DNA of 64,000 nt, from IMG/VR virus record IMGVR_UViG_3300020477_001475, positions 32,001-96,000 of that record; one strand, 5' to 3'. Under the pieces are notes generated by a model. That model did not search any database, was not told the DNA's origin, and saw only the letters and a program-made list of their open reading frames with translations. This document shows positions 1,964 through 64,000 of this stretch, one piece after another (the first letter of the stretch is position 1; each line of letters starts with the position of its first letter). The position numbers were made by a program, and so were the translations under genes. The DNA comes from a virus.

Positions 1964-2036
1964 AGCGGAATCGTAGAACTGCCCTACGCTCTATACACTG
2001 GTATGTGTATCGTTTCTCTCTTGAAACCTATTCCGC
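1964..2036 (-). ncRNA. Non-canonical tRNA-Gly-like cloverleaf RNA, copy A (ACC at the anticodon position)
   Basis: GCGGAAT AG GTTTC-AAGAGA-GAAAC G ATACAC-ATACCA-GTGTAT AGAG CGTAG-GGCAGTT-CTACG ATTCCGC T; four perfect stems, covarying with copy B. Confidence 0.8.
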
Positions 2037-2045: not shown

Positions 2046-2118
2046 AGCGGGATTTAGGAACTGCCCCTAACCCTTTACACTGGAATGTGTAACGAATCTC
2101 TCTTGATTCTTATCCCGC
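2046..2118 (-). ncRNA. Non-canonical tRNA-Gly-like cloverleaf RNA, copy B (TCC at the anticodon position)
   Basis: GCGGGAT AA GAATC-AAGAGA-GATTC G TTACAC-ATTCCA-GTGTAA AGGG TTAGG-GGCAGTT-CCTAA ATCCCGC T; G1-C72, C2-G71, G3-C70, U73. Confidence 0.8.
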
Positions 2119-4424: not shown

Positions 4425-4586
4425 TTATTCACCTAATTCTTTTAATCTATCCTTTAATTCTGCATTTTCCATTGATAATGCAACTAATTCCATTTGTCTA
4501 TCCACATTACTTGAAGCACTTAATATCGCAGTCAACATAAATCCCATAGGTGCTCCTACCATCATTCCAAATATAAATTCTAACAT
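4425..4586 (-). CDS. Small membrane-anchored coiled-coil protein (53 aa)
   Basis: MLEFIFGMMVGAPMGFMLTAILSAS hydrophobic N-terminus; AGGA RBS; promoter at 4616-4645. Confidence 0.6.
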   Translation of the reverse strand: MLEFIFGMMVGAPMGFMLTAILSASSNVDRQMELVALSMENAELKDRLKELGE

Positions 4587-4615
4587 ATTCTATTTTCCTG
4601 TTTTACTTGTATGTT

Positions 4616-4645
4616 AATATACAACTATTATTTTATATACTACAA
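4616..4645 (-). promoter_or_regulatory. sigma70-like promoter (TTGTAG-18-TATATT) heading the small-ORF run
   Basis: Repeated promoter family. Confidence 0.55.
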
Positions 4646-4819
4646 CGTTTTTCTTCACTTGCCATATTATAAATATGTATAGGCGTATAGATAATAAATT
4701 CGATGTGGTTGTCTACGCTAATCATAAAATTTTAATTTTATGATCCACGAATGTTATATCTTTTATCCTAATCATATTTTTACAATGCGAGGAGGCGTTA
4801 TCCAAAATTTTTTTCTTCA

Positions 4820-16800: not shown

Positions 16801-19800
16801 CACCAGCAATATCATAACAATACTTAACCCATGGAAAGTCACACGCTGCACCATCACCATCACAATCAGAATAAAAAGTTAATCTTGTATCAACTAAATT
16901 AGCTATACATTCATTATTATTTCCACTAAATCCAATAGGAGGTGGACAATTTTCACCTATTTGGACATCATTAGGACATGATGGTCTAAAACAATTATTA
17001 GGACTACCACATAATGCTGTAGTATTAGTACGTGGATTACATTCTATACCACCAGATTCACCACCACAAGTATATTCATTACAAATTCTATCATAACCAT
17101 CTGTATCATCCCAAACAACTGGATAACAAAATTCACCACATGTTATAGTAGAATAACTTGGATCACTACCATCATATTTAAATTTACACGAACCATCTTC
17201 TTCGGTTGCAAATGGATTATAATTACAAGCTTCTGAATTAGTACAACCCCATACTTGACAATTCCAGTAAATATTACCTTCACTACTTTGACATACTTCT
17301 GGATTAGCAACGAATCTTATATAAGATGGATTAGTATCAGAACCAGATGCACCATAACCATATTCAAAATAATTGGACCCCTCTTCTTTACTTGCGGTAA
17401 ATTGTGCCAATATATATATGTTACCGTCATCAGGATTAAAAATTCTTATAGTATATTCATTTAAACCAACACCATCATATTTAATATTCTCTGGAAAATC
17501 ATATAGAGGTTTACCTTGAGCTCCTCTAGATAAACAATATTCATCACCTTCACAATCAGTAACTTCAGGATACCATGTATTGTCATGTGTACTTAATAAA
17601 TAATGCCAATCCCAATTTTCAGCAGTTTCTTCAAATATATCATCATAATGTGGATCGGTATCATTTAACAAATATTGAAATACTAATGGTGAAATATTTT
17701 CAGTCGACCATAATCCATCCCAAATATATAAACAAGGATCATTCTGATTATTGTCACAATACACAGAACAATCAGGATTACTGTCAGGACATTCACTATT
17801 ATCATCTGAAGGTAAACATGGTTTTTCTTCACCTGTTTGGCAGAAATAACCAGCTTCAGGATATAAACTATACCAGGTTTCATCTTCAGTACCTGTTAGT
17901 TCATTTACAAGATACGGTGGTTCAATATTACCAATATAATTTATATTAAAAGGAAAATGTCTGAATGTAGGCATAATACCTTTTATTTCACAATCTTCAA
18001 CACTTGTACAAGAATGGTTTGGATTGGGTAACCCAGATTGTAATGCAAATCCTTTGAATATACCAACCACATGATTGTCATAAGGAGATATATCACCATT
18101 ATCAAAATAACCTACATCTGGTACAGGTTGTCCTAACCAATCACCACCTTCTAAAGTTTCACCTTCAATTAAATTGACATTCATATAGAATACATCACCA
18201 TTAGGACCGTGAGAATCACTTACATTATAATAAGAAGTATACCAATTAAAAGGGAAATTTTCTATACAACTACCATCATCGTCTTCACATCTAGCAGGAT
18301 ATCCACCATTGTCCGGTAATGCTGCATCAACATTTACTTCACATTCACCAGCACTCAAATAAGATAGTTTATTTCCAGAAGTAATCCATTCATTTGAAGT
18401 ACTTGCATCAAAATGAGAAAGTGATTTCCATTCATAACTTTTCCATTCCGGAGTTAACCATTTTGCATATATCCATTCCCATTCATGACCACTCCACCCA
18501 TTTGCGTGATTACAATAATCATTATAATCTCTTCTACTACTACTGGAATAACCAATACCATGATGATCTTTATGTCCTGGTCCAGCACTTCCTATGGGAT
18601 ATGGTATATTACCCCTTATATCAGTTTCTTCTCCATCAGATGCATCAAAAAATTCTCTACCATTATCTGTATGATGATAACCTCTAGCTTCACCATAATG
18701 TATTGCTGCATTTTTACGATCCCAACATATACCATATTTATTATCACACCTATCACCACCACTATTATCAAGTCTTTCATCCAAAAACCAGTAATATGTT
18801 CTAATTTCACTTTCATCATCTTCCCATTCCCATGGAGGTCCAGTAGGAGTACAATCACCACCATATAAGCAACCATCAGTATCATAATCACCCATTAAAT
18901 TACTAAAGCCAGCTGGCCAATAATTAAGATTACCACCATCTTCATAATAATGTTTATCATATTTTTGCCAATGATAACCCCAGTCACAACCCACAGGACA
19001 GCCATCGTATTCTTCAGGATTACCAGTTTGTCTAATTATAGAACCATCATCAGGATTACTTAAACAATCATTAGATAAACCCTGATAAAAAGTATCTACA
19101 CTCCAAGAAACATATTTATAACATTCTCTTTGTGGAGTTAAAGCCCACAACTCAGTTGGACCACCCATTATAAAAGTTATTCTGTTTTCTTCATTTAAAG
19201 GTGCATTACCATCCCAAGGCCATTGTGCATAATCATCTTCGTGTAAACCACCTAGTGGTAAGGTAGCTCTTGGTAAATAACCACCTTCTGCCGACAATAG
19301 TATTTCGTCGCCTTCAAACCATTCACCATCATCTGTTTCATCACAATCATCTTCATTATCAATATCAGGATAACCATCACAATATGATTCACCTCTATAC
19401 CACCAATTTTCGTCATCCATTAAATCAAATACACAAAATCCTGTAGATTCACATTCATCTTGATCAGCTGCAACTAGTGTTTCACCTGTTAAGGGATTAA
19501 CACAAATTCCCATATCTTCACAAGTACTGTCATCTTCATACAAATCTGTAAACCATTCCAACACATTATCATCATCATCGTATAATACACAATAACCATA
19601 ATCTGTATCACCACAATATGTTTCCACATCAAAAGTTTCGGTGCACCCTTCACCTGTATTTGGATCACTCCCATCACCACAAGATTCTACTATATAACAA
19701 TTATTAAAACCTTCACATTCAGCTTGGTCCATAGTATCAGTTAAAATAACTATTGGGTCACAACATTGAGAACTATTATCACATTCATGAATAGTACCAA

Positions 19801-50851: not shown

Positions 50852-51259
50852 TTAATAAATTATTAAAGTTTTTTTATTAAATTTTTCGGCATATTTTAAT
50901 GTAGATTCTGTACCACTCGTGCTTATGCCCTTTGGAATAAATGCAACTATATAATCACTAGTTCCAGCAATTATCTTATTTCTAACATGATAATTCTTTA
51001 CATGATAAGGCTTTCCATATCTAGATTCAGATAATGGGCAATATAAATTATGAGGAAAATGATCAGGTGGATATTCTTCATATTGTAAACCCAATTCAAG
51101 AGCGTATTTCTTAGCGTATTTATCAGCCCCATCTTTACAACCACCACTTACGATTGTAGTATCTTCACCATGTTCTTGCTTCAATTTAAAAATAAAATCT
51201 TTTATTTTCTTTTTATTTTCATATTTACGACTGCCAATTATAGCTATTTTCATTAACAA
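50852..51259 (-). CDS. SLOG-superfamily (DUF2493/YspA-like) protein
   Basis: IAIIGSR, IVSGGCKDGAD, RNKII, VAF...GT. Confidence 0.8.
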   Translation of the reverse strand: MLMKIAIIGSRKYENKKKIKDFIFKLKQEHGEDTTIVSGGCKDGADKYAKKYALELGLQYEEYPPDHFPHNLYCPLSESRYGKPYHVKNYHVRNKIIAGTSDYIVAFIPKGISTSGTESTLKYAEKFNKKTLIIY

Positions 51260-51340
51260 TTACCATTATTGAAAAGTAAAAACATGGCCAACATTATCAA
51301 TTTATCTAAAATCCACAATGATATCAATATAGTCAATTTT

Positions 51341-51691
51341 TTATCTATTCCTATTTTCATTTTTTTTATCTATCCTTTTTATTTGTTTATAAATATTTTT
51401 ATAATATTCCAAACCATCTAAAATATTACCTTCATATTTATACCTCCACCCACATTTATCACCATTATTTATAACAAAAAAATTATAATTTATTATATCA
51501 CCATTTTTATACGATTTATTTATCATATAATCATATTTTTTTACAAATTTATTAGTACTTCCATTCAACCCAACTATATTCAATTCAAAATCTCTATTTT
51601 TGTAAAAAGATTTTAAAAAACTAACTACATTCTCTTCTTCACTTAATATATCTTCTATGTTAAGTAATAATGAATAAACATGTCTACTCAA
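51341..51691 (-). CDS. Hypothetical protein
   Basis: 116-aa ORF abutting the nuclease gene. Confidence 0.5.
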   Translation of the reverse strand: MSRHVYSLLLNIEDILSEEENVVSFLKSFYKNRDFELNIVGLNGSTNKFVKKYDYMINKSYKNGDIINYNFFVINNGDKCGWRYKYEGNILDGLEYYKNIYKQIKRIDKKNENRNR

Positions 51692-52552
51692 TTAAATTAT
51701 ACCTTCTTTACAATATTCAGTTTGATTAAATTCACAAAATCTACAAGCGTTTTTACTCGGCGTGGCGTGCAGAGCATCGGCCGAATAACTACCATCATTG
51801 GCAAACGCTTCATCTATAAACCTATTCAATTTTTTACCTATCTTGTTCATAGAAACCTTACCACTGGCAGGTGCAAACTTCTGAAATCTCTTTTGTGGAA
51901 AATCCACATTTTCCCACAACTTTCTTTTCAATATCAAATATTCAATATCTATTCTATCTATGGGATGATTATATTGTTTAGAATAAAATTGTTTATATAA
52001 CAATAATTGTGATGTTTTATCAAAATCCTTTTTCATCCATTTATTCCAACCTTTTGTGGATGTTTTCAAATCAATTATCTTTATTGAATCTGTTGGTTTA
52101 TGCCTTAACACCACATCAAGATAACCAACCATTCTAATATTATTCTTTAATTCCATATCTATTGGAACTTCACAACCAATTAATTCCCATTTATTTTTGA
52201 AAAAATATTCACCCCGTTTCTTCCTAAAAAAATCAAGTATTTCAATACCATCATCAAAAAATTCTGATAATTGTTCTTTTGTACATGGTGGTTTACCATC
52301 ATTTTCTTCAGCTTTTTTAAATTCATTTATCATTTCTTTTTGTAACAATGCTGGTAAATCAATTTCATTGGCCTTTTTCACACTTTCACCATACATCACA
52401 TCAAGATAATGTTGTATTGTTTCGTGCATTGCTGTTCCAAATACCAAATGTATATTTGATTCTGATACGGATATTTCATCCACATATCTTAGTTTCCAAT
52501 GCATTGGGCATTGGCTATACATCGATAATTGACTGTATGATATTTTATTCAT
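51692..52552 (-). CDS. PD-(D/E)XK exonuclease, Cas4/RecB/AddB-like
   Basis: SYSQL...CP, GTAMHE, GYLDVV...IIDLKTS, QLLLY, C-terminal CRFC...C (1+3 Cys pattern). Confidence 0.85.
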   Translation of the reverse strand: MNKISYSQLSMYSQCPMHWKLRYVDEISVSESNIHLVFGTAMHETIQHYLDVMYGESVKKANEIDLPALLQKEMINEFKKAEENDGKPPCTKEQLSEFFDDGIEILDFFRKKRGEYFFKNKWELIGCEVPIDMELKNNIRMVGYLDVVLRHKPTDSIKIIDLKTSTKGWNKWMKKDFDKTSQLLLYKQFYSKQYNHPIDRIDIEYLILKRKLWENVDFPQKRFQKFAPASGKVSMNKIGKKLNRFIDEAFANDGSYSADALHATPSKNACRFCEFNQTEYCKEGII

Positions 52553-52832
52553 TTTTGCCTACCATTCTATGATATGGTTTTTTATAATAATGTGAAATAA
52601 ATGTACTAATTTCTTCCATATCTAATTTTCTTCTTAAATTATTTTCTAATCTTGTATATGGACAATCTAATCTGTTTAAAGCTAAATGCATTATCCACGC
52701 TGATAGTGGTAATGCTATCCAAATAGGTTCATTGATAAATAATAAAGGAACACTTAATGTTATAACCCAAAGCCCAATATGATGTGTAACTACGGTAAAT
52801 ACAAACAATAATCTATAAAATGTTCTATTCAT
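52545..52832 (-). CDS. Small membrane protein (DUF2784-like)
   Basis: Two hydrophobic helices then CPYTRLENNLR...FISHY. Confidence 0.65.
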   Translation of the reverse strand: MNRTFYRLLFVFTVVTHHIGLWVITLSVPLLFINEPIWIALPLSAWIMHLALNRLDCPYTRLENNLRRKLDMEEISTFISHYYKKPYHRMVGKNE

Positions 52833-53502
52833 CTTTCTCCTTTGGGTAAGGTAATATTTTATATTTTAAATTTTTCATCATATCCTTTTTTTCCTTTTTA
52901 TTTCCCATTAAATACAAATATCTATATTTTCCATGTAATTTTTTAATTTCGTATTGAACTCCCATTTTTTTCAATTTATCTTTACTACGAGTACCATACC
53001 TTTGATTCATAGTTCTGGGATGTACTTTTTTACCATCAATAATATACCAAGTATCTTCAGTACTAGTTCCACAATACAACCAATTGGTTGCTTGATATAT
53101 TTTTCCAAAATGACCTTGTTCTGGATCGGCAAAAGATACTAATATCTTTATATCAGGATGATTTTTCTTTATATATTTTATACTTTGACCTATACAATAA
53201 CTTTCCATATTCTTACCAGCCCAATCAAAACTAAACAACCTAACTAATTCCCAATATTTTCCAGGAAGACTATCTTTCATAGTTGACGATGCACTTTGAC
53301 CATAAACTAAAACTGCATTCAATTTCTTTTCTACATAAAATCCCAAACATAATTCAGATGCTGGAAATGCATGACTATAATGATTTTTAATTATTATACT
53401 TTTAGCTAAATTGGATGGTATTCGTTCCATTTCAATATTATTCTTATCTAAAGTATCCATTTCTACTTCTGATGTAGGATCACCATCCCAGAAATTATTC
53501 AT
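52825..53502 (-). CDS. mom: Mom-like GNAT-fold DNA (adenine) modification enzyme
   Basis: NHYS, LGFY, ELVRLF, KNMESYCI, LVSFADPEQGHFGKIYQATNWLYCG, KYRY: matches the Mu Mom family pattern. Confidence 0.75.
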   Translation of the reverse strand: MNNFWDGDPTSEVEMDTLDKNNIEMERIPSNLAKSIIIKNHYSHAFPASELCLGFYVEKKLNAVLVYGQSASSTMKDSLPGKYWELVRLFSFDWAGKNMESYCIGQSIKYIKKNHPDIKILVSFADPEQGHFGKIYQATNWLYCGTSTEDTWYIIDGKKVHPRTMNQRYGTRSKDKLKKMGVQYEIKKLHGKYRYLYLMGNKKEKKDMMKNLKYKILPYPKEKDE

Positions 53503-53513
53503 AATTTTAATCT

Positions 53514-54272
53514 CTATAAAATATTAGAATTATTGTCAACAACAACTTTTTTTATTTTCAATTCATTATTACCAGTATTTTTAGGATAATCCATAGACGG
53601 ATGTTTTAAAGATTTTATAAATTTTTTCTTTTCTTTTTTTGTACCTAAAAAATAAACATATCTGTGTTTACGTGGATCTTCTTTCAACCAAAATGTATGT
53701 CCTATCTTGTCTTTCAACTTTTCCATGTTATTAGTACCATACATAGCAAAAATAGTTCTGGAATGTATCCAATCACCATCCTCTTCCAACCTTAATAACC
53801 AAGAATCACAATATCTAATTTTATCCCCTTGATATACCCAATTAGTTGCTTGATAAATACCACCCAAATGACCTTCTTTAGGATCTGCATAAGATAATAA
53901 AGCTTTAATGGATTTATCATTTGTTTTTAACCATTCAAAAGTCCTACTAATAAAAGATGATTCTATATTTTTACCATAACCATCATGAATAAATAACCGT
54001 GTTAATTCTAATACATTCTTATTTTCCAATTCACTGGAAATAGATTGTGCAGCCAACCTACCAACAGGATAACCATAAACAGCAACACCAATTAGTTTTT
54101 CTTCCTTTTCATCAAAAAATGCATGATCATTACCAGTTTCATAAAAAAGACCCAATGCATAACGACAACTTGTCCACGCATGAGAATAATGATATTTTTC
54201 AATCATTTTTTTACCTATATTTTTAGGTATAGATTTAACCTTTAATTTTTTTATATCTACATATTTTTCCAT
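53514..54272 (-). CDS. mom: Mom-like GNAT-fold DNA (adenine) modification enzyme, second paralogue
   Basis: YHYS, LGLF, ELTRLF, KNIESSFI, LLSYADPKEGHLGGIYQATNWVYQG, KHRY. Confidence 0.75.
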   Translation of the reverse strand: MEKYVDIKKLKVKSIPKNIGKKMIEKYHYSHAWTSCRYALGLFYETGNDHAFFDEKEEKLIGVAVYGYPVGRLAAQSISSELENKNVLELTRLFIHDGYGKNIESSFISRTFEWLKTNDKSIKALLSYADPKEGHLGGIYQATNWVYQGDKIRYCDSWLLRLEEDGDWIHSRTIFAMYGTNNMEKLKDKIGHTFWLKEDPRKHRYVYFLGTKKEKKKFIKSLKHPSMDYPKNTGNNELKIKKVVVDNNSNIL

Positions 54273-54277
54273 AATAA

Positions 54278-54307
54278 AATATACAACCTTTTTGTAATAT
54301 AAAACAA
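54278..54307 (-). promoter_or_regulatory. sigma70-like promoter (TTGTTT-18-TATATT) directly upstream of the first Mom-like gene
   Basis: Repeated promoter family; -10 ends 5 nt before the ATG and no RBS is evident. Confidence 0.55.
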
Positions 54308-54317
54308 GCTTTTTATG

Positions 54318-54465
54318 CTGGAGCCGTAGGAGTCGAACCTACACGAAGAAGTTAGCCTTAGTTCAAGTGTGCACCTAAGTAGTGGTCAACCCATTAAACC
54401 ATGTTTATCCTTTTATCTTCACCCCCGAGACAAGAGGGCGTGTCTGCCAATTCCACCAGACTCCA
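54318..54465 (-). tRNA. Aberrant 148-nt tRNA-Asp(GUC)-like RNA with a 79-nt variable region
   Basis: Acceptor TGGAGTC/GGCTCCA + G73; D arm GTG-GAATTGGCAGA-CAC; anticodon arm CCCTC-TTGTCTC-GGGGG; T arm GTAGG-TTCGACT-CCTAC; CCA not encoded. Confidence 0.75.
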
Positions 54466-54471
54466 ATGTTA

Positions 54472-54972
54472 TTATTTATCTAATAACCAAGATGATGATT
54501 GTATTTTGTCACCACCTATTCCCCAAATCATTTCTACACCTAAATCCTGGCAAACCTGCATTTCAGGTACATTATCTGATGTTCTATCCCCACCGTTAGC
54601 AAAAAACAATTTATATTCTTTTTCACCGGTTGGGTTTGAATCTAAATAATCATAGTTAAATCCTTGACCACTATAAATGGTTCTAACTTGTTTGATTAAA
54701 CTACAAGCCGTATCATCTTTATCATCAAAGGCTAACACTTGGTTGACATATTTAAAACCTTCAAGTATTTCTTTTCTTTCTTTGAAATCCATAAATGGTT
54801 TTTCTTTTTTACGAGTTAACCAATCATCTGAATTTAATCCCACTATAACTTGATGTCCTAACCAACTTGCTTCTCTAAACATTCTTAAATGACCTTTATG
54901 TACAGGATCAAATCCACCACTCATTATGATGACGGATTTTCTCCAGTCTTTATTCCATGTCGTTTGTTTCAC
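54472..54972 (-). CDS. HxGH cytidylyl/adenylyltransferase (TagD/RfaE-II-like)
   Basis: SGGFDPVHKGH, VGLNSD, ANGGDR, KIQSSS. Confidence 0.88.
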   Translation of the reverse strand: MKQTTWNKDWRKSVIIMSGGFDPVHKGHLRMFREASWLGHQVIVGLNSDDWLTRKKEKPFMDFKERKEILEGFKYVNQVLAFDDKDDTACSLIKQVRTIYSGQGFNYDYLDSNPTGEKEYKLFFANGGDRTSDNVPEMQVCQDLGVEMIWGIGGDKIQSSSWLLDK

Positions 54973-55796
54973 TTAGTTAACCCCGACATTTCCATAGCTC
55001 TTACCATTCTCGTTACACCAATTCCACCACCGAATCTAGGGAAGAAATCGTGTGATAAGTATTCTTCTAATTCTTTTTCAACTCTTTCTTTTGTGAAATG
55101 GTTGTAAAGTAATTGAGCATACTCACCGTCTGAAATTGAATGGAAGTTTTCTCTCATTTCATCAACATTAACTGCTCTTTCAGCTGAACCAATTGTTTCT
55201 TGACCATGCATGATAACATCAATCTTATTGTAAAGATTTTTGTCATCATCATTTTGTTTCATGTTCCAGAATGGATGTGTTCTATGTGGAAAATGTGATA
55301 AAAATGTACAAGTACCTAATTCTTTACTCATAGCTTCTTCTTCTGCATAATCTAATTCATCAACACTATATTTTTCACATGCTTCATCATATTTGATTTT
55401 ACCATGTTCAGAACCAAAACCTAAAAACTCTAATAATTCTTCTTCCATTTCTTCTAATTTGTCCATACCACCGTGAGACTCAAACTCGAACATTGGGAAT
55501 AATTTCTCATGACGACCTTCAACAGGATTTGGTTCATTTCTATAACTCGTTGATACACAAAATACACCTTTTACTGTTGGATTCTTTAATAATTCATATT
55601 CAAGCCACATTTGTCCAGTCTGCGGTAACGGCCAGTTTACACCATTAAACACATATTGTGATATGGTTTTTGGATCTTCACAAGCCGCTAATATAGACCT
55701 TCTTGATTGTGTTGGAACTTCTATAAATCCCTTTGCTTCTCTAAAGTATTGTCTCATTTTATAAACTGCTGCATCAAATGCGAACATATCTTTCAT
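54969..55796 (-). CDS. Class IIb aminoacyl-tRNA synthetase catalytic domain only (AsnRS/AspRS-like; possible asparagine synthetase)
   Basis: Motif 1 GFIEVPT, motif 2 SYRNE...RHEKLFPMFEFE, ETIGSAER, motif 3 GGGIGVTR; 275 aa, no anticodon-binding OB domain. Confidence 0.82.
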   Translation of the reverse strand: MKDMFAFDAAVYKMRQYFREAKGFIEVPTQSRRSILAACEDPKTISQYVFNGVNWPLPQTGQMWLEYELLKNPTVKGVFCVSTSYRNEPNPVEGRHEKLFPMFEFESHGGMDKLEEMEEELLEFLGFGSEHGKIKYDEACEKYSVDELDYAEEEAMSKELGTCTFLSHFPHRTHPFWNMKQNDDDKNLYNKIDVIMHGQETIGSAERAVNVDEMRENFHSISDGEYAQLLYNHFTKERVEKELEEYLSHDFFPRFGGGIGVTRMVRAMEMSGLTK

Positions 55797-55807
55797 TTAT
55801 CTTCTCC

Positions 55808-56275
55808 TTAACATCCTATATAAAATATAATCAAACCTAAAACACATACACCCCAATCAAATACATTTGAACGAGGTAAACTTATGTTCATCATTTTCCA
55901 TGGTGCTTTACTTGCGAAAGGATCATCAAGACACACATAATTCAATGCTCTTTCATATACAAAATAACCAACCATCCAACTACCTAACCAAATAAATAAT
56001 AAATCGTAAAAACTAGTTCCAGCCCACATACCAAGTGTATATGCTGATAAGATACAACCTACAGTACCTATATTTTCACCTAATCTCCAAGCATGATAAT
56101 CAAGAATACCTACCCCACTAGGTTTACCCTTTTTACTAATACTACCAAATATTAATTTATTTGATTTTCTTTGTTTTGCATTTGCCCATGTATATCCTTC
56201 AGTACACCCTTCACTAAACCAATATACAACCATAAAAAATAAAAAACATAATTCTAATAACATATTAATCTCCAC
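55808..56275 (-). CDS. Membrane hypothetical protein
   Basis: About four hydrophobic segments. Confidence 0.6.
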   Translation of the reverse strand: MEINMLLELCFLFFMVVYWFSEGCTEGYTWANAKQRKSNKLIFGSISKKGKPSGVGILDYHAWRLGENIGTVGCILSAYTLGMWAGTSFYDLLFIWLGSWMVGYFVYERALNYVCLDDPFASKAPWKMMNISLPRSNVFDWGVCVLGLIIFYIGC

Positions 56276-57260
56276 ATATTGTTTCTGTTAATTTAAAACA
56301 AACCTTATAAGGATCACAATTAGCAGAAGGTCTTCTATCTTCAAGATAACCTTTACCATCTTTTGCTACTTGCCAAGGAACTCTAACTGATGCTCCTCTA
56401 TCCGAAACTCCCCAATGAAATCTATTAATTGGACAAGTTTCATGCAATCCAGTGAGTCGTCTTTCATTACCATGACCATAAACACCAATATGTTCTTGAT
56501 GTTTATTTTCTAATTTCTGTATAGCTTCATGTATAACTTTATCACCACCATCTTCTCTCATAGCCTTTGTTGAGAAGTTTGTATGAGCACCAGCACCATT
56601 CCAATCACCTTCAACAGGTTTTGGGTCAAGTGATACTTCTATATCGTTTTTAGCACAAACCTTTTCCAATATCCAACGAGCAACCCAAATATCATCTGAT
56701 ATTACTATTGGGTCATCGGCACCAATCTGATACTCCCATTGTCCAAGCATAACTTCTGAATTAATACCACTAATCTTGATACCAGCTTTAATACAATAAT
56801 CCATATGTCTGCGAGCAATCCAATCGCCTTTATTTCTACCACAATAGTAATCACCTTGTGGTGCAGGCTCACCTTCTATTGGCCATCCCAATGGTCTACC
56901 ATTTTCATACAAAGTATATTCTTGCTCTATACCAACCCATACATCTTGCTCTCTATGTGTTTGGTATAACTCTTCCAATTCAAACCTATGATTAGTCGGA
57001 TGTGGATGGTCATGGACATCCCAAACTTCACATAATACCAAAAATGAATCGTGTTTTTCCATAGGATTTTCATATAATCTAACAGGTTTTAAAACACAAT
57101 CAGAGTTAGCTCCTTCAGCTTGATTTGTTGATGAACCATCAAACCCCCATACAGGACAATCAGTTATACTCCTACCAAATTCTTCTACAATTTTTGTTTT
57201 ACTACGCAATTGACTTGTTGGTTCAGTTCCATCAATCCATATGTATTCTAATTTAGTCAT
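56265..57260 (-). CDS. glnII: Glutamine synthetase type II
   Basis: EYIWIDG, LRSKT, WGFDGSST.QA, GINSEVMLGQWEYQIG, DWNGAGAHTNFST, RLTGLHET, GYLEDRRP. Confidence 0.95.
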   Translation of the reverse strand: MTKLEYIWIDGTEPTSQLRSKTKIVEEFGRSITDCPVWGFDGSSTNQAEGANSDCVLKPVRLYENPMEKHDSFLVLCEVWDVHDHPHPTNHRFELEELYQTHREQDVWVGIEQEYTLYENGRPLGWPIEGEPAPQGDYYCGRNKGDWIARRHMDYCIKAGIKISGINSEVMLGQWEYQIGADDPIVISDDIWVARWILEKVCAKNDIEVSLDPKPVEGDWNGAGAHTNFSTKAMREDGGDKVIHEAIQKLENKHQEHIGVYGHGNERRLTGLHETCPINRFHWGVSDRGASVRVPWQVAKDGKGYLEDRRPSANCDPYKVCFKLTETICGD

Positions 57261-57261
57261 A

Positions 57262-57684
57262 TTATTTCCCCCAAACTTTTTCTTTCACTAATTGTGCTAT
57301 TATAGCGTAATTTGCTAAGTCCATAAAGGTATCCATTAATGATTCATTTTCAGGTTCTTGATTGTTTATAACAATTTGTTGAAATCTTTGCATCTTATCA
57401 TTCATTCTGAACCATAATCCTGTAAGTGCTAATTTAACTTCTTCTTCTGTTTCAAGGTTACTTCCAACTGATATATTTTTTGGACCATAATCTTTTTGTT
57501 TTTTACAGAATAATTCCCATTGATTAAATTGGATGTCTTGAAACATTTTTGTTGTATCTGGATATTTTTCTTCTATAAAATTTATAGGGTTAGTGTCATC
57601 CCATCCCATATTATTATTCATTATAACACCATTTAATGAACTTTTTTTAGAAGCTTCTTTTATAACTTTAATTTTACTTTTCAT
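57262..57684 (-). CDS. DUF1599 / nucleotide-modification-associated domain protein
   Basis: KQKDYG, RMNDKMQR, ESLMDTFMDLANYAII. Confidence 0.8.
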   Translation of the reverse strand: MKSKIKVIKEASKKSSLNGVIMNNNMGWDDTNPINFIEEKYPDTTKMFQDIQFNQWELFCKKQKDYGPKNISVGSNLETEEEVKLALTGLWFRMNDKMQRFQQIVINNQEPENESLMDTFMDLANYAIIAQLVKEKVWGK

Positions 57685-58109
57685 TTTTTACCCTTCAATA
57701 GTTTTTTAATTTGTTTTGGTTCCTTACCATATATTTCTAATAACGATTTTAATTGATTTTTATCCAAAATATCCACATATTCAACACATTCTTTTTTACT
57801 GACTTCGTAATATTTGCAAACTATATCCACCAATTCTACATCATATTTCACTTGTTTTTTTCCTTTAATATACCTATTGAAACGTTTTCCTTTAGGAAGG
57901 ATATCACGATACCATTTATAAGTATCCTTTGGTTCCAATAATCCAATAGAATATTTTTGAAAAAAATTGACTATTTCAATAAATTCTCTATCCATAGACA
58001 GCCATCTATTTATAATAAAAGGATTAAATGTTTTTTGATCTGATTCCGAAAAATCATTCCAATCTTTTTTATGAACCAACAACTGGTTCACCCAATCTAC
58101 AATCGTCAT
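57681..58109 (-). CDS. Clamp loader small subunit (T4 gp62-like)
   Basis: FNPFIINRWLSM...K.KRF..YIK...YYEVS pattern; near clamp and clamp-loader ATPase. Confidence 0.7.
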   Translation of the reverse strand: MTIVDWVNQLLVHKKDWNDFSESDQKTFNPFIINRWLSMDREFIEIVNFFQKYSIGLLEPKDTYKWYRDILPKGKRFNRYIKGKKQVKYDVELVDIVCKYYEVSKKECVEYVDILDKNQLKSLLEIYGKEPKQIKKLLKGKK

Positions 58110-58321: not shown

Positions 58322-58542
58322 TATTCAAATTCACCTTGTTGAAATTCTTTATTAACATGCCCACATTTATTACAACTGAAAACTTGCATTGGTATAATAG
58401 CTTCTTGACCTGATGGTGATACCAAAGCTGATAATTTTCTCATTTTATATCTTGTATTAAATACATCATGTTCACATTCTTCACATTTATATGCCGTTGT
58501 TTTCGACATATCTACACCACTATGCATTTCTCCATCCAACAT
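58321..58542 (-). CDS. Zinc-ribbon hypothetical protein
   Basis: CEEC and CNKCGH pairs. Confidence 0.7.
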   Translation of the reverse strand: MLDGEMHSGVDMSKTTAYKCEECEHDVFNTRYKMRKLSALVSPSGQEAIIPMQVFSCNKCGHVNKEFQQGEFE

Positions 58543-58895
58543 TATTTTACCTCCAATAATTCTACATCAAAAATTAATATGGAATTTGGTGGAATTTTAC
58601 CCATATTTCTTTCACCATAACCAAGTTCAGGTGGTATAATCAAAGTTCTTTTACTACCAACATTCATATCAGCAAATCCTTCATCCCATCCTTTAATTAC
58701 TCTACCTTTACCGATAGGAAATTCAAAAGGTTTGTTTCTATCATAAGAACTATCAAAAACAGTACCATCTTCTAAATAACCTTTATAATGAGCAACTACA
58801 GTTTGACCATCAGTAGGTTTTTTTCCAGAACCCTTTTTATGTTCTAACATTCTCAAACCACTATCCATTACCATTTCATTCATTTTGTACCCCAC
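58542..58895 (-). CDS. FKBP-type peptidyl-prolyl isomerase
   Basis: [45 protein letters not shown]. Confidence 0.95.
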
Positions 58896-59108: not shown

Positions 59109-60107
59109 TTATTTAATATTATTTATTGGTATTAATTTCTTAATATTTTCATCTACATGTTGTGGTACAAATCCTTTAATTTTTAAGAATTTATTCCATT
59201 TGAGTTTTTTTCCATATAGTTTATCTAAATTTGATTTATATTCTTCTATATTAGATAAACATTTTTTTCTACCTTTATTTAATGAATCTAAACCTTTAAC
59301 ACCTCTAATGACATGGAGTATTATCTCTGTTACTTTACCATGTTTTATCCAATTTCGTACTGCTGTATATAGTTTTGTATCTTCATAACTATATGGTAAA
59401 GCTATCTGATGACAGTCACCACCCTCATTATAATCATTACCTGTTTGAAATCCATATACTGGTTCACTTTCCCAGCATTTATCTATCCATTCAGTTTTTA
59501 TACTTTTATCAGTATAAGTCCAAGTTTTATTTTTTGGTTTATTAGTTTTTAATCTATCCATAACTGCAGTTAAAACTTTACCTTTGGAAACTTTATCTAA
59601 GTGCGGTTCACATTCTTTTAGAAAATCCTTGAAAGCTTTCTCTGAATTTTTCATTTCCTTCATTTCTACTGCTTCTATGATAGAGTTTTGTAAGTCGTGT
59701 TCTGTGTTATCCCATTTTGGTAATTTCCTATTAGACCAAATCCTTAAAGCTCTTTTTGATCTTGGAGTAGAACATTCTACAACAATATGTGCATACCAAT
59801 TAACATTACTTACTTCAAAATAACCATCTCTACCAAACCCATCAATTCTATCATAAATCCCATCAGTCCGTTCTTCAACAATTGGTATTGGTTGATTAAA
59901 ATCTAAACCACCTTTAAATGATTTTTCTAATTTATCTACTCTATTTGTTATTTCATCATGTACTCTGTGTTGACCATAAATCGTATCATTATTAACCATA
60001 TTACGATGTAATATTTTAATACCTATAACTTTAATACCCTTAATTGGAATATCTGGTATATTAAACTTATCAACATTTCTTTCCAAATATTCTTTTGTTA
60101 TTTTCAT
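59109..60107 (-). CDS. Hypothetical protein with possible ParB/Srx-like N-terminal domain
   Basis: PIPIV...IDGFGR resembles the ParB DG.HR motif; weak. Confidence 0.45.
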   Translation of the reverse strand: MKITKEYLERNVDKFNIPDIPIKGIKVIGIKILHRNMVNNDTIYGQHRVHDEITNRVDKLEKSFKGGLDFNQPIPIVEERTDGIYDRIDGFGRDGYFEVSNVNWYAHIVVECSTPRSKRALRIWSNRKLPKWDNTEHDLQNSIIEAVEMKEMKNSEKAFKDFLKECEPHLDKVSKGKVLTAVMDRLKTNKPKNKTWTYTDKSIKTEWIDKCWESEPVYGFQTGNDYNEGGDCHQIALPYSYEDTKLYTAVRNWIKHGKVTEIILHVIRGVKGLDSLNKGRKKCLSNIEEYKSNLDKLYGKKLKWNKFLKIKGFVPQHVDENIKKLIPINNIK

Positions 60108-61009
60108 TTAATTATCTCCATTATTTTAATCATTGTAGACATAAAGTTTATTTCTTTATCCACCACATTAACATCTTGATATTGTCCTTGAGCAATAGCT
60201 AATATACATTCAGCATCTTTGCCATTTGAATAAGCACCAACATCATCATATAATAATCTATATAATTCCGAATAATCACTTATAGAATTATCAGCAATCA
60301 ACTGCCTAACATCAGTAAAATTATTACCATTAGACAAACATTCTAATAATTGTAATTTATAATTATTTTGAATAATAGAACTATTATCAATCTTCAATTC
60401 ACCACCAACCACTTGTCTTTGTGCAGAATTTATAACTCTACGAATATCTGGATATCCAGCGTTTACAATTAAAGCTACATCATCTAAATCATAAACAATA
60501 CTTTCTTGATTTAAAATATTAACCATTTGTTGAGCTACCTCTTTTTTAGATGGTGGAACAACTTTGTATGATTGACATCTCGATTGAATTGGATCGATTA
60601 TTCTTTCTACATAATTACAAGTAAGAATGAACCGACAATGTTTTGAAAATGTTTCCATTAGGTTTCTTAACGCTGCTTGTGCATTTGGTGTAAGATAATC
60701 ACACTCATCAAGAATCACAACTTTCAAATCTTTAAACCCAACAGAAGATGCAAATGTTTTAACTTTATTCCTGACATCATCAACCTTATTTTCGTCAGAA
60801 GCATTTATATACATGTAATCACAATCAATGTTCTTAACAACTATCTTAGCAAGTGTGGTTTTACCTGTACCAGCTTTACCATAAAGTAAAAGGTGAGGTA
60901 CATCTTCATTTTCTAAATATATACTCACCTTACTTTTAAGATGTTCATTACCTATATAAGTTGATAAATCAGTAGGTCTGTATTTTTCTACCCATAAACT
61001 ATGACTCAT
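60104..61009 (-). CDS. Clamp loader ATPase subunit (RFC small / T4 gp44-like)
   Basis: WVEKYRP, GKAGTGKT, NASD, LDECD, AQAALR, SRC. Confidence 0.93.
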   Translation of the reverse strand: MSHSLWVEKYRPTDLSTYIGNEHLKSKVSIYLENEDVPHLLLYGKAGTGKTTLAKIVVKNIDCDYMYINASDENKVDDVRNKVKTFASSVGFKDLKVVILDECDYLTPNAQAALRNLMETFSKHCRFILTCNYVERIIDPIQSRCQSYKVVPPSKKEVAQQMVNILNQESIVYDLDDVALIVNAGYPDIRRVINSAQRQVVGGELKIDNSSIIQNNYKLQLLECLSNGNNFTDVRQLIADNSISDYSELYRLLYDDVGAYSNGKDAECILAIAQGQYQDVNVVDKEINFMSTMIKIMEIIK

Positions 61010-61806: not shown

Positions 61807-64000
61807 TTAAAAAAATCTTTCAATAGAATTTTGTCTATCAGTAGGCATTTCCCAATTTAATGCATTATAAAACATTATTATCTTCTTTTCCATAGCACCT
61901 TTGTATAACTTATCATAATTAGCATACTGCTTAATAAAATCCATAATTTCAGGTGGATCATCATAACCTTTAAATGCTATAGCTTCAATACCATAAGAAT
62001 TGTTTTTCAAATATATCCATTTTATTTTAGAACTATTTCTAATTGGTTCTATATTATTTAACCCAAAATGTTTTAATAAATCGTTATATTTAATAGAAGC
62101 TTTAACATGAACAGGAGTACCCTTCTTTAAATTACTAAATATAGATCCAGTGTTAGAAAATTTACTTCTCTTCTTATCCAAATACTTTTTCAAACCTTTA
62201 ACACCAGTTGGTAATGCTATGTCTTCAATAGGTTCGGTTTTCATACTCTTTTTAAATTTCATTATAATATCATCAATGTCATCTTTTGGTTCATTTGATA
62301 ATATCATTTGTAACACATTTTTCATTAAATCTCTCATCGCTGGTGGGAAATTACTTCTAACAATATCTAAACCTTTAACATCAAGTTTATCACATTTAAC
62401 ACCACCATCATTAATAATCCATTGACCATATCTTTTCTTTGTAACCCAAAATGCTGATTTGGCAACACACTCTTGTTTGATATCAAATCTATGATCACCT
62501 TTAATATTCAAAAACTTTTTAGCAAAATAATTATAACTATTATTAATAAAATCTTGAACTTCTTTAGCAACATCCAATATTTGTGTTGTCATAAATTCTT
62601 CATTATTAACATCTACATCTGGAAATCTTTTTTTAACAAGTGGTAAAGCCGGATAGAATACAGAATCAGTATCTGTATAAATACAATAATCTTCCTTATC
62701 ATCAAGTTCTTTATTATAATAATGATTAGCTATCTTCTCTGTAAATTTTATTAATTCTTGTCCTGTTAATGTAGTAGCTTCAGCATTATCAACATCATAA
62801 AATCTGAATACAGGTAATCCTAACACACCATACAGAGAATTAAGAATAATCTTTTGAATATGTTGTCTTCTTTTAAAATAACCATATTTTTCATCATCAC
62901 CTTCATTACCATATTTTTTCATAAGAGTTTTATATTCAACTCTTTCATTAAACCATTTTTCCAATAATACAGGAATCAATCCCTTCCTATCATTTCTATA
63001 TAATATACCATTAGAAGATATAGTTATATTATTTTCACTAAATAATTTTTTTAATTGTATTTCATCGAATGTACCTTGTATCCTATTATTCTTTTCCAAC
63101 GAATATGTTTTCGATGTACCCCTGATAAATTCTTCTGCATCCCAGCCAATCAATTTACCCAACTTCATTTCAGGTGATATATTTAAAGACATAATAACTG
63201 AAGGGTACATTGATGTCAAATCTAAATCATAAACCCAATCATATCTACCAGATTTTGGATCTTTTACATATGCCCCACTAAATTTTTCATCATCACTTTT
63301 CATTTTAGCACCAAACTTTTTGTTTGGGGCTATAACACCAACCTTCTTCATATAAACCAACATAGCACCTTCGAGATACCTACTACTATAAAAATTATCT
63401 TCATAAGGTACATGACCAAGATGACTAACACCACGAGCCAAATCAATAAATTTTAATTTATCATCTAATGCCTTTACAATAATAACATCATTTAAATTAT
63501 ATTCCACATATTTGTTTATATCGGTTTCATATAAATCTTGTAAAGTTCCCTCATACTCAATCTTACCAATACCAACTTCAAGTTGACCTATGAAATCTAA
63601 TCTATATGATGATTGTTGTGTATATGTAAACCATCTATACAATTTAAGATAATCAAGACATGATACACCAGCTATTTTATACATTTTTCTGGAATCATTA
63701 TAATAAACTTCACCTATGGGAGATAAAGTATTGGCAAAACTTTCACCCATAACCCTTTTAGTTCTATTATACAAATATGGTATATCAAAACCATCTATAT
63801 TCCAACCACTCAATATAGTTGGGTTTATTTCTAGATACTTTTGATAAAACCTCTGCAATAATTCTTCTTCACTACCAAAAGCTTCTATAGTAGTTTTTTT
63901 ATGAATTGAATTTTTGATATTTCCTAATATCAAACAAGTATAACTGTCAGCAACTTTATCATATAATGCTATAGATGTTATTTTATTTTTAGCTATTGAT
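61807..64000 (-). CDS. polB: Family B DNA polymerase, 5' end beyond the window
   Basis: ExoII SGWNIDGFDIPY, ExoIII YNLND, motif A DLTSMYPS, motif B KIILNSLYG, motif C YTDTDS; frame stays open from 63933 to 64000. Confidence 0.96.
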   Translation of the reverse strand, partial: SIAKNKITSIALYDKVADSYTCLILGNIKNSIHKKTTIEAFGSEEELLQRFYQKYLEINPTILSGWNIDGFDIPYLYNRTKRVMGESFANTLSPIGEVYYNDSRKMYKIAGVSCLDYLKLYRWFTYTQQSSYRLDFIGQLEVGIGKIEYEGTLQDLYETDINKYVEYNLNDVIIVKALDDKLKFIDLARGVSHLGHVPYEDNFYSSRYLEGAMLVYMKKVGVIAPNKKFGAKMKSDDEKFSGAYVKDPKSGRYDWVYDLDLTSMYPSVIMSLNISPEMKLGKLIGWDAEEFIRGTSKTYSLEKNNRIQGTFDEIQLKKLFSENNITISSNGILYRNDRKGLIPVLLEKWFNERVEYKTLMKKYGNEGDDEKYGYFKRRQHIQKIILNSLYGVLGLPVFRFYDVDNAEATTLTGQELIKFTEKIANHYYNKELDDKEDYCIYTDTDSVFYPALPLVKKRFPDVDVNNEEFMTTQILDVAKEVQDFINNSYNYFAKKFLNIKGDHRFDIKQECVAKSAFWVTKKRYGQWIINDGGVKCDKLDVKGLDIVRSNFPPAMRDLMKNVLQMILSNEPKDDIDDIIMKFKKSMKTEPIEDIALPTGVKGLKKYLDKKRSKFSNTGSIFSNLKKGTPVHVKASIKYNDLLKHFGLNNIEPIRNSSKIKWIYLKNNSYGIEAIAFKGYDDPPEIMDFIKQYANYDKLYKGAMEKKIIMFYNALNWEMPTDRQNSIERFF

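What the first reader, a model, noticed from the sequence alone, without database searches (positions are those of the whole stretch)
52825..54272. Two Mom-like enzymes plus phage-encoded aberrant tRNAs: candidate self-contained aminoacyl-tRNA-dependent DNA hypermodification system
Seen: two adjacent diverged paralogues with the Mom pattern (HYS...EL.RL...KN.ES...S(F/Y)ADP..GH.G.IYQATNW.Y.G), next to an aberrant tRNA-like gene and close to the replisome. Established: Mu Mom is a GNAT-fold enzyme that makes N6-carbamoylmethyladenine; from memory, recent biochemistry indicates its donor is glycyl-tRNA-Gly (verify). Inference: the two tRNA-Gly-like RNAs at 1964-2118 could be dedicated glycyl donors, and one paralogue might use another amino acid carried by the neighbouring tRNA-Asp-like RNA, giving a new modified base. 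Caveat: the Gly-like RNAs are ~50 kb away, so the link is functional reasoning, not synteny.
Basis: partly seen in the sequence, partly recalled or inferred. Interest (0 to 1): 0.85.

Follow-up and report, generated by a model that had tools for sequence, protein, structure and literature searches.

The report
Phage Mom pair with private tRNA-Gly
A marine T4-like phage carries two real Mom-type DNA-modifying enzymes and, 50 kb away, two deformed glycine-tRNA look-alikes of a family that elsewhere nearly always travels with Mom genes, so these RNAs probably supply Mom's glycine, whereas the odd tRNA next door belongs to an unrelated module.

Summary
Observation confirmed. ORFs 52825-53502 and 53514-54272 (minus strand) are Mom-family proteins (PF25680, E about 1e-50; Mu Mom PDB 8bv8, E 5e-19 and 7e-13) and are 41% identical. 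An aberrant tRNA lies 45 nt upstream, and the replisome genes are nearby.

Interpretation partly supported.
(1) Mom's donor is Gly-tRNA-Gly (Silva et al. 2026, PMC13219725).
(2) The two cloverleaf RNAs at 1964-2118 are read on the minus strand. They keep the bacterial glycine identity set but lack the canonical D, anticodon and T loops. Their family (my model R2) occurs in 21 viral contigs, and 18 of these hold Mom. In at least 7 distinct contigs, spanning four deep Mom clades, the RNA touches or overlaps the mom gene. Controls gave 0 of 48 and 0 of 2. The glycyl-donor idea therefore gains real support.
(3) The neighbouring "tRNA-Asp-like" RNA is a diverged member of a long-variable-arm tRNA-Asn family. 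That family follows a truncated AsnRS-like gene, as in cyanophages P-SSM2 and P-SSM7. No contig with that module holds Mom, so the second-amino-acid idea is not supported.
(4) No GlyRS is in the contig, so the system is not self-contained.

This scan has noted private tRNA-Gly beside Mom many times on other DNA. I reached the result independently before reading those notes.

The parts
52825..53502 (-). Mom1, a 225-aa Mom-family GNAT. Its nearest relative is the third of four tandem Mom genes in L081.
   Evidence: PF25680 E 2.2e-50. 8bv8_A E 4.7e-19, aligned over Mu residues 30-232. Mu H58/Y59, R111, S124 and D149 are kept; Mu R151 aligns to Glu. Groups with L081_3476-4183 at 98/100 support.
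53514..54272 (-). Mom2, a 252-aa Mom-family GNAT. It is the orthologue of the single Mom that relatives keep between the clamp-loader A gene and the PD-(D/E)XK nuclease gene.
   Evidence: PF25680 E 1.1e-49. 8bv8_A E 6.6e-13; Mu R151 aligns to Lys. 61-62% identical orthologues sit in the same slot in L083-L086. The tree draws it beside the subclade that holds the RNA-adjacent Moms of L114/L116, but the fork joining them is unresolved and no well-supported branch places Mom2.
2046..2118 (-). tRNA-Gly-like RNA, upstream copy on the minus strand. Its loop AUUCCA carries UCC.
   Evidence: Cloverleaf fold, z about -3.8. R2 107.3 bits. G1-C72, C2-G71, G3-C70, U73, C35 and C36 are kept; the D loop is AAGAGA and the T loop GGCAGUU. 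ARAGORN and Rfam do not find it.
1964..2036 (-). tRNA-Gly-like RNA, downstream copy on the minus strand. Its loop AUACCA carries ACC.
   Evidence: Same fold, z about -4.8. R2 106.6 bits. It differs from the other copy by compensatory pairs in all four stems.
54318..54465 (-). 148-nt long-variable-arm tRNA with anticodon GUC. It is a separate module and is not linked to Mom.
   Evidence: R1 71.9 bits, full model, E 1e-18. All other members of the family read GUU and follow the AsnRS-like gene. The 79-nt insert is no more stable than shuffled sequence, z -0.11.
54969..55796 (-). 275-aa class IIb aaRS catalytic core without an anticodon-binding domain (AsnRS-like; annotated 'tRNA ligase' T4-GC194 in cyanophages). 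It is the evolutionary partner of the tRNA above.
   Evidence: PF00152 E 8e-17. The model (pLDDT 88) best matches AsnRS catalytic domains, TM 0.76-0.78. At least 596 relatives occur in IMG/VR, and it is present in P-SSM2, P-SSM5 and P-SSM7.

Best explanation
Mom1 and Mom2 are two diverged Mom-type GNAT enzymes. Like Mu Mom, they most likely take glycine from glycyl-tRNA and transfer it to N6 of adenine in double-stranded phage DNA after replication, which shields the DNA from host nucleases. Two paralogues most likely widen the range of sequence contexts that get modified (inferred). The two tandem cloverleaf RNAs at 1964-2118 (minus strand) are highly derived phage tRNA-Gly(UCC) genes. They keep what bacterial GlyRS reads (G1-C72, C2-G71, U73, C35, C36). 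They have lost what the ribosome and the tRNA elbow need (7-nt anticodon loop, G18G19, T54-psi55-C56). The host GlyRS charges them, and they act as a private, non-translating pool of glycyl donors for Mom. This parallels the non-proteogenic tRNA-Gly that feeds the Fem enzymes of Staphylococcus. The aberrant tRNA beside Mom2 is not part of this. It belongs with the truncated AsnRS-like gene, and it lies next to Mom only because both cargoes sit in the same variable slot of the replication module. Shown: family memberships, RNA structures, co-occurrence and adjacency. Inferred: charging by GlyRS, use by Mom, the chemistry of the product and the reason for two paralogues.
For: Mom membership. Donor chemistry of Mu Mom: PMC13219725; that paper also suggests Mom reads mainly the acceptor end. 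RNA structure: 23 of 23 pairs form and 10 are compensatory in 3 sequences. Across 13 distinct family members 96.6% of cells are paired and the covariation score is 0.70, against 0.15 for shuffles. A G-U pair in L100 would be A.C on the plus strand, which fixes the minus strand as the RNA strand. Glycine identity elements are kept in all 14 distinct members, while the D, anticodon and T loops erode stepwise. Some members carry a UGC T loop, as in staphylococcal non-proteogenic tRNA-Gly. ARAGORN of the 21 hits tRNA-Gly(UCC). Association: a Mom-blind pattern scan of IMG/VR gave 23 loci, of which 21 match R2. 18 of these 21 contigs hold PF25680; the 3 without are fragments of 4-7 kb; all 3 contigs that are at least 90% complete have Mom. 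The RNA is within about 200 nt of, or overlaps, a mom ORF in L107/L119, L109, L111, L113, L114/L115, L116/L125 and L121. Those Moms fall in four deeply separated clades. Controls: 0 of 46 IMG/VR contigs and 0 of 2 complete cyanophages with the other tRNA module hold Mom. 0 of 2 pattern hits that fail R2 hold Mom. The same search finds both Moms in the window's own genome.
Against: In this genome the RNAs lie about 50 kb from the Mom genes, so the link rests on other loci. Mom does not need such an RNA: Mu has none, and only 5 of 35 Mom2-like contigs of 20 kb or more, and 2 of 5 nearly complete ones, hold an R2 match. The contigs share ancestry, so the 18 of 21 are not independent events; I count about 14 distinct RNAs. 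The retrieval pattern fixed part of the D arm, so only one subfamily was sampled. The window copies are the most degenerate members (6-nt or 8-nt anticodon loop, no encoded CCA) and could be decaying genes. Mu's essential R151 is Glu in Mom1. Charging, expression and modification are untested, and no RNA run is on record for this stretch.
Confidence: 0.6

Rival explanations
1. The Mom enzymes use only host Gly-tRNA-Gly. The two cloverleaf RNAs are ordinary or decaying phage tRNA-Gly genes, or small RNAs with another job, and their association with Mom reflects shared ancestry of the phages.
For: Mu Mom works with all host tRNA-Gly isoacceptors. Most Mom2-like contigs lack an R2 RNA. In the window the RNAs are 50 kb from Mom. 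Their loops are degenerate.
Against: 18 of 21 against 0 of 50 in controls. Direct adjacency or overlap occurs in four deep Mom clades and in contigs of 29-58% GC. The stems keep compensatory changes while the glycine identity elements stay invariant, which is not the pattern of decay.
Confidence: 0.22
2. One reading: the AsnRS-like enzyme charges the neighbouring tRNA(GUC), and one Mom paralogue transfers that amino acid (Asp or Asn) to DNA, producing a new modified base.
For: Only the local gene order: aaRS-like gene, cytidylyltransferase-like gene, tRNA, Mom2, Mom1. In addition, this copy of the tRNA is atypical, with GUC and a 79-nt insert.
Against: The aaRS-like/tRNA module occurs in at least 596 viral loci. 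None of 46 IMG/VR contigs, 8 of them at least 90% complete, holds Mom, and neither do P-SSM2 or P-SSM7. Mom2 orthologues sit in the same slot with no tRNA or aaRS (L083-L086), and L012 has the aaRS module there without Mom. The insert is not stably folded.
Confidence: 0.04
3. The tRNA-Gly-like elements act in cis as processing or regulatory signals for mom transcripts (an RNase P/Z cut site, or control of a toxic gene) rather than as glycyl donors.
For: In five loci the mom frame has no stop codon before the RNA and runs through it. Processing there would leave a non-stop mom mRNA.
Against: In the window and in G065, G072, G077 and G078 the RNA stands 11-50 kb from the recognised Mom genes; G065 has only a sub-threshold match 1.2 kb away. 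The strictly kept glycine identity set is not needed for a mere processing signal. Both roles could coexist.
Confidence: 0.08

Closest known systems
Bacteriophage Mu Mom with host Gly-tRNA-Gly (Silva et al., Nat Commun 2026, PMC13219725; PDB 8bv8; Pfam PF25680)
   Same: Same protein family, with full-length alignment to the crystal chain. The H58/Y59, R111, S124 and D149 equivalents are kept. The expected donor is glycyl-tRNA and the expected target is adenine N6 in dsDNA.
   Different: There are two paralogues rather than one. They are only about 25-30% identical to Mu Mom, and Mu R151 is Glu in Mom1 and Lys in Mom2. The phage also carries its own tRNA-Gly-like RNAs, which Mu lacks and the paper does not mention.
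Non-proteogenic tRNA-Gly(UCC) NP1-NP3 of Staphylococcus aureus, which feed FmhB/FemA/FemB (PMC7826273)
   Same: tRNA-Gly(UCC) variants that are charged by the normal GlyRS but are altered in the T loop (UGC or UGU instead of UUC) and in the D and anticodon regions. As a result they serve a GNAT-fold transferase rather than the ribosome. Some R2 members carry the same UGC T loop.
   Different: Those tRNAs are cellular and the acceptor is peptidoglycan. Here the RNAs are phage-encoded, the presumed acceptor is DNA, and the window copies are far more deformed (T loop GGCAGUU, no G18G19, 6-nt loop).
tRNA-Gly-like 'pseudo-tRNA' embedded in the mom homologue of Dehalococcoides ssrA genomic islands (McMurdie et al. 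2011, PMC3146451)
   Same: A tRNA-Gly-like element physically joined to a mom gene. My loci L107, L109, L111, L113 and L121 likewise have the RNA inside the mom open frame.
   Different: It lies within the first 150 bp of mom in a bacterial island, and it was described before Mom's donor was known, with no functional link drawn. In the window the RNAs are free-standing, tandem and distant.
'tRNA ligase' (T4-GC194) plus tRNA-Asn of Prochlorococcus phages P-SSM2, P-SSM5 and P-SSM7
   Same: The window's aaRS-like protein is 54-58% identical to these. Its tRNA matches the same long-arm family, which lies 8-9 nt after the gene in P-SSM2 and P-SSM7.
   Different: The window copy reads GUC rather than GUU, carries a 79-nt insert, and is separated from the aaRS-like gene by a cytidylyltransferase-like gene.

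Membership tests
Mom (Pfam PF25680) | Full-length match to the family profile above the curated cut-off | tested here: met
   171.6 and 169.3 bits against a cut-off of 27.1, profile positions 2-202 of 202. The six-frame search of the genome repeats this.
Mom (Pfam PF25680) | Residues needed for Mu Mom activity (H58, Y59, R111, S124, D149, R151; PMC13219725) | tested here: inconclusive
   H, Y, R, S and D are kept in both proteins, but R151 aligns to Glu in Mom1 and Lys in Mom2. This column varies across the marine Mom sequences, including RNA-adjacent ones.
Mom (Pfam PF25680) | Helix-turn-helix-like insertion (Mu residues about 175-209) in the GNAT fold | tested here: inconclusive
   The sequence alignments run through Mu 175-232 without a break. 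No structure of Mom1 or Mom2 was predicted.
Mom (Pfam PF25680) | Glycyl transfer from Gly-tRNA-Gly to adenine N6 in dsDNA | not testable with these tools
   Needs enzyme assays or nucleoside LC-MS.
Bacterial tRNA-Gly | Glycine identity set: G1-C72, C2-G71, U73, C35, C36 (PMC9976931) | tested here: met
   Both window copies and L100 have all of these, plus G3-C70 and A37. 12 of 14 distinct family members have U73.
Bacterial tRNA-Gly | Canonical tRNA core: 7-nt anticodon loop, G18G19 in the D loop, UUC in the T loop; recognised by tRNA finders | tested here: not met
   The window copies have a 6-nt loop (or an 8-nt loop with one pair opened), D loop AAGAGA and T loop GGCAGUU. ARAGORN and Rfam give no call. 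Nine relatives in the same R2 family are canonical enough for ARAGORN.
Mom-associated tRNA-Gly-like RNA family (model R2) | Match to the covariance model and presence of Mom in the same genome | tested here: met
   107.3 and 106.6 bits. There are two PF25680 genes in the genome. Family-wide, 18 of 21 contigs hold Mom.
Mom-associated tRNA-Gly-like RNA family (model R2) | Physical adjacency to a mom gene | tested here: not met
   In the window the RNAs are about 50 kb from Mom1 and Mom2. G065, G072, G077 and G078 also show 11-30 kb separation.
Long-variable-arm tRNA-Asn paired with the AsnRS-like 'tRNA ligase' (model R1) | Full-length model match near the aaRS-like gene | tested here: met
   71.9 bits, model positions 1-87, E 1e-18. 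The RNA lies about 500 nt downstream of the aaRS-like gene.
Long-variable-arm tRNA-Asn paired with the AsnRS-like 'tRNA ligase' (model R1) | Invariant anticodon loop CUGUUUA (GUU) | tested here: not met
   The window has UUGUCUC (GUC). The loop is invariant in the 10 aligned members.
Asparaginyl-tRNA synthetase | Class IIb catalytic core plus an N-terminal anticodon-binding OB domain | tested here: not met
   The core is present: PF00152, invariant motif 2 and 3 arginines in A6, and best fold matches to AsnRS. The protein has only 275 aa and begins at the catalytic domain, so there is no anticodon-binding domain.

The most novel reading that the evidence does not exclude
The phage runs two or more orthogonal donor-enzyme pairs. 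The ACC-loop and UCC-loop RNAs would each serve a different Mom, or one of the DruA-family paralogues upstream of the window. Alternatively, the anticodon-blind AsnRS-like enzyme would load the GUC tRNA with Asn or Asp for Mom1, whose Mu-R151 position is Glu, giving a second, undescribed adenine adduct alongside N6-carbamoylmethyladenine.
Probability: 0.05. Interest if true: 0.92.

Novelty: new variant of a known kind. Interest (0 to 1): 0.7.

Why it matters
Mom's use of charged tRNA to modify DNA was established only in 2023-2026, and only with host tRNA. If phages also carry glycine tRNAs that stay chargeable but have been stripped of translational features, several things follow. It would be the first case of a virus encoding a dedicated aminoacyl carrier for DNA hypermodification. 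It would be a viral counterpart of the staphylococcal non-proteogenic tRNA-Gly. It would explain a class of 'pseudo-tRNAs' that annotation pipelines miss. It would also show which parts of a tRNA Mom and GlyRS really need, which is useful for engineering orthogonal donor and enzyme pairs. The window further shows that local synteny can mislead: the tRNA next to Mom is not Mom's partner, and the partner lies 50 kb away.

Tried and rejected
(1) ARAGORN's default run and Rfam at gathering and at E up to 10 found no tRNA anywhere in the window or the 108-kb contig. With introns allowed, ARAGORN parses 54317-54465 as tRNA-Leu(UAA) with a 68-nt intron. I rejected this parse because its anticodon stem is weak and the comparative model R1 fits a GUC loop plus a long variable arm.
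(2) A strict loop-plus-stem pattern for the Gly-like RNA found nothing in IMG/VR. Looser patterns succeeded.
(3) blastn of three family RNAs against cultured phages gave no usable cultured example. Polaribacter phage P12002L has a Mom 52% identical to Mom2 but no R2 RNA.
(5) A profile comparison of the two DruA-family paralogues upstream of the window against the Mom alignment gave no similarity (probability 0.5%). The alignments were shallow, so this does not decide the question.
(7) The 79-nt insert of the GUC tRNA folds no better than shuffled sequence (z -0.11), so I do not call it a structured domain.
(8) I did not run a complex prediction for Mom1 with Mom2, because I make no claim that they bind.
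Full report
WHAT IS THERE

The window is part of a single 108,474-bp viral contig with 30% G+C, which CheckV rates about 55% complete. Public runs that hold the stretch are marine metagenomes. Nearly all genes run on the minus strand.

Read in the direction of transcription, the region around the finding holds:
- family B DNA polymerase, 61807-63999
- RFC-like clamp loader, 60104-61009
- FKBP, 58542-58895
- clamp-loader A subunit, 57681-58109
- DUF1599, 57262-57684
- GlnII-type glutamine synthetase, 56265-57260
- a 155-aa protein with no family match, hydrophobic in sequence (probably membrane), 55808-56275
- a 275-aa class II aaRS core, 54969-55796
- a cytidylyltransferase-like protein, 54472-54972
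- a tRNA-like gene, 54318-54465
- Mom2, 53514-54272
- Mom1, 52825-53502
- DUF2784, 52545-52832
- a PD-(D/E)XK nuclease, 51692-52552
- a SLOG/DprA-like protein, 50852-51259
- glycosyltransferases further downstream.

THE TWO MOM GENES

Both ORFs match Pfam PF25680 end to end (E 2.2e-50 and 1.1e-49). Both match the Mu Mom crystal chain 8bv8_A (E 4.7e-19 and 6.6e-13). The equivalents of Mu H58/Y59, R111, S124 and D149 are kept. Mu R151, which is essential in Mu, aligns to Glu in Mom1 and Lys in Mom2. That column also varies in other marine Mom sequences.

The paralogues are 41% identical and belong to different clades. Mom1 pairs with the third of four tandem Mom genes in L081. Mom2 is drawn among single-copy orthologues and beside the subclade that holds L114/L116, but no well-supported branch fixes its place.

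Several Mom genes per phage is a known situation; PA5oct has five (PMC7824862). It is also common in this lineage: L081 has four, and L087-L096 have two.

Mu Mom transfers glycine from Gly-tRNA-Gly to adenine N6 in dsDNA, and the adduct then rearranges to N6-carbamoylmethyladenine (PMC13219725).

THE tRNA NEXT DOOR IS NOT MOM'S

The 148-nt RNA at 54318-54465 has intact acceptor, D, anticodon and T arms, a GUC anticodon, U37 and a 79-nt insert in the variable arm.

Its relatives were found by starting from the aaRS-like gene.
- That protein has at least 596 relatives in IMG/VR, at 54-72% identity.
- It is the 'tRNA ligase' (T4-GC194) of Prochlorococcus phages P-SSM2, P-SSM5 and P-SSM7.
- In at least 14 of the best 80 loci, and in P-SSM2 and P-SSM7, a tRNA-Asn(GUU) gene follows it, usually within a few to a few hundred bases and 8-9 nt after the gene in the two cyanophages.
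- Most of these tRNAs are 85-97 nt long. They have a Leu-type D arm, an invariant loop CUGUUUA and a covarying long variable arm. In that alignment 100% of cells are paired and 18 of 24 pairs are compensatory.

The window RNA matches the model built from them at 71.9 bits over the full length. The protein model (pLDDT 88) is closest to AsnRS catalytic domains, and the protein has no anticodon-binding domain.

None of 46 IMG/VR contigs with this module holds a Mom gene, and 8 of those are at least 90% complete. Neither P-SSM2 nor P-SSM7 holds one. The same search finds both Moms in the window's own genome.

Conversely, the closest Mom2 orthologues (L083-L086) lie between the clamp-loader A gene and the PD-(D/E)XK nuclease gene with no tRNA or aaRS. 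L012 has GlnII plus the aaRS-like gene in that same slot without Mom. The adjacency in the window is therefore best explained by two cargoes sharing one variable slot.

THE DISTANT GLY-LIKE RNAs DO TRACK MOM

The 82-nt tandem repeat at 1961-2124 folds into a cloverleaf on either strand, with z from -3.8 to -4.8. A homologue in L100 has a G-U pair that would be A.C on the plus strand, so the RNA is read on the minus strand.

On that strand the layout is tRNA-like:
- a 7-bp acceptor stem, 2 nt, a D arm, 1 nt, an anticodon arm, 4 nt, a T arm with a 7-nt loop, then the acceptor 3' strand and U73
- G1-C72, C2-G71, G3-C70, C35, C36 and A37, which is the bacterial glycine identity set (PMC9976931)
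- L100 encodes UCCA at the 3' end.

Three features are not canonical. The D loop (AAGAGA) lacks G18G19. The T loop is GGCAGUU. The anticodon loop has 6 nt, or 8 nt with one pair opened.

All 23 pairs form in the three sequences, and 10 carry compensatory changes.

A pattern drawn from the D arm was scanned over all of IMG/VR without regard to Mom and gave 23 loci. Of these, 21 match my model R2 (E 1e-10 or better), representing 13 distinct sequences, or 14 when the window's own two copies are counted. ARAGORN calls nine of the 21 tRNA-Gly(UCC).

The family runs from canonical members (T loop UUCGAUU, D loop with GG), through members with a UGC T loop, to the window type. The UGC T loop is the mark of staphylococcal non-proteogenic tRNA-Gly (PMC7826273). 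Covariation across the family is strong: 96.6% of cells are paired and the score is 0.70 against 0.15 for shuffles.

Mom (PF25680) is present in 18 of these 21 contigs. The three without it are fragments of 4-7 kb. All three contigs that are at least 90% complete have it. The two pattern hits that fail R2 lie in contigs without Mom.

In L107/L119, L109, L111, L113, L114/L115, L116/L125 and L121 the RNA is within about 200 nt of the mom gene on the same strand, or overlaps it. These contigs range from 29% to 58% G+C, and their Moms fall in four deeply separated clades.

Each of the 13 such contigs I searched whole has exactly one such RNA, whatever its number of Moms; only the window's genome has a tandem pair.

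The reverse does not hold. Only 5 of 35 Mom2-like contigs of 20 kb or more, and 2 of 5 nearly complete ones, hold an R2 match. The RNA therefore behaves as an optional accessory of Mom, not a requirement.

No GlyRS is found in the contig, so charging would depend on the host enzyme. The system is not self-contained.

MECHANISM PROPOSED

- Shown: two Mom-family enzymes; two conserved tRNA-Gly-derived RNAs that keep the GlyRS determinants and have lost translational features; a strong, repeated genomic association of this RNA family with mom.
- Inferred: the host GlyRS charges the RNAs. Being poor substrates for EF-Tu and the ribosome, they form a private glycyl-tRNA pool. Mom1 and/or Mom2 draw on that pool to glycylate adenine N6 late in infection without competing with translation. 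The two Moms differ in sequence context.
- I put this at about 0.6.

COMPARISON AND NOVELTY

The enzymes are new members of the Mom family. The RNA component is not in the 2026 paper, and full-text searches for a link between Mom and a phage tRNA-Gly found nothing.

A tRNA-Gly-like 'pseudo-tRNA' embedded in mom of Dehalococcoides islands was described in 2011, without a functional link (PMC3146451). The closest functional analogue is the staphylococcal non-proteogenic tRNA-Gly.

This scan has already noted 'private tRNA-Gly beside Mom' many times on other DNA. I read those notes only after one search had given the association independently, and they agree with it.

What this window adds:
- an unlinked arrangement, with the RNAs 50 kb from Mom
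- a tandem pair of the most derived RNA type
- two Moms, plus two DruA-family genes just outside the window
- a decoy tRNA beside Mom.

I class the finding as a new variant of a known kind, with interest 0.7.

Noticed in passing
window 54969-55796 and 54318-54465; L005-L030, L098 (P-SSM2), L099 (P-SSM7): A truncated AsnRS-like catalytic core with no anticodon-binding domain is followed in many marine phages by a tRNA-Asn(GUU). That tRNA is unusual for Asn: it has a long covarying variable arm, a Leu-type D arm and U37. The two closest loci (L005, L009) instead have a canonical 74-nt tRNA-Asn. The pair looks like an anticodon-blind synthetase with its own tRNA, and its function is unknown. The window's copy reads GUC (Asp).
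   Followed up: partly
L107 7394-8284, L109 5061-5900, L111 10943-11761, L113 11-967, L121 5503-6264: In all five loci where mom precedes the tRNA-Gly-like gene, the mom frame has no stop codon before the RNA. It reads through the whole RNA in frame 0, 1 or 2, so no conserved peptide results. It stops at the RNA's 3' end or 2 to 77 codons later. RNase P processing there would leave a non-stop mom mRNA.
   Followed up: partly
genome C1:16692-18948 (L208 1193-3449), about 13 kb before the window start: Two tandem DruA-family (PF14236) paralogues, 40% identical to each other, lie next to a PhoH gene and about 15 kb from the tRNA-Gly-like pair. A shallow profile comparison with Mom gave no similarity.
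   Followed up: partly
window 50852-58109 compared with L012 and L083-L097: The interval between the clamp-loader A gene and the PD-(D/E)XK nuclease gene is a variable slot in this phage lineage. Different relatives carry Mom, DUF1599, GlnII or the aaRS-like gene there in different combinations.
   Followed up: yes
window 52545-52832; L116 2625-2852; L125 993-1220: A small DUF2784 protein (hydrophobic in sequence, so probably membrane) lies directly after Mom1. A copy 51% identical lies within 1 kb of the tRNA-Gly-like RNA plus Mom pair in L116 and L125.
   Followed up: no
window 56265-57260: A phage-encoded GlnII-type glutamine synthetase scores 460 bits against NF041605, just under the 500-bit cut-off. 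It also occurs in L012 (78%), L123 (66%) and L027 (50%).
   Followed up: no
window 1553-4819: A 3.2-kb stretch has no ORF of 90 aa or more. It holds the two RNAs, repeated ACAACGTTTTTGT-type motifs, a perfect 23-nt inverted repeat (1642-1664 with 1741-1763) and an exact 23-nt direct repeat (1616 and 2671).
   Followed up: no
L098 (NC_006883.2, P-SSM2): The RefSeq record places tRNA-Asn (PSSM2_199) at 164094-164179, inside a CDS. ARAGORN and R1 find it at locus 3265-3352, directly after the 'tRNA ligase' gene, so the annotated coordinates look shifted.
   Followed up: yes
L081 1810-4901: Four Mom-family genes lie in tandem in one 27.6-kb viral contig, including the closest relatives of both Mom1 and Mom2.
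   Followed up: partly
window 4820-20179: A single 5,119-aa ORF lies on the minus strand and is followed by a 1,194-aa ORF. I did not examine them.
   Followed up: no
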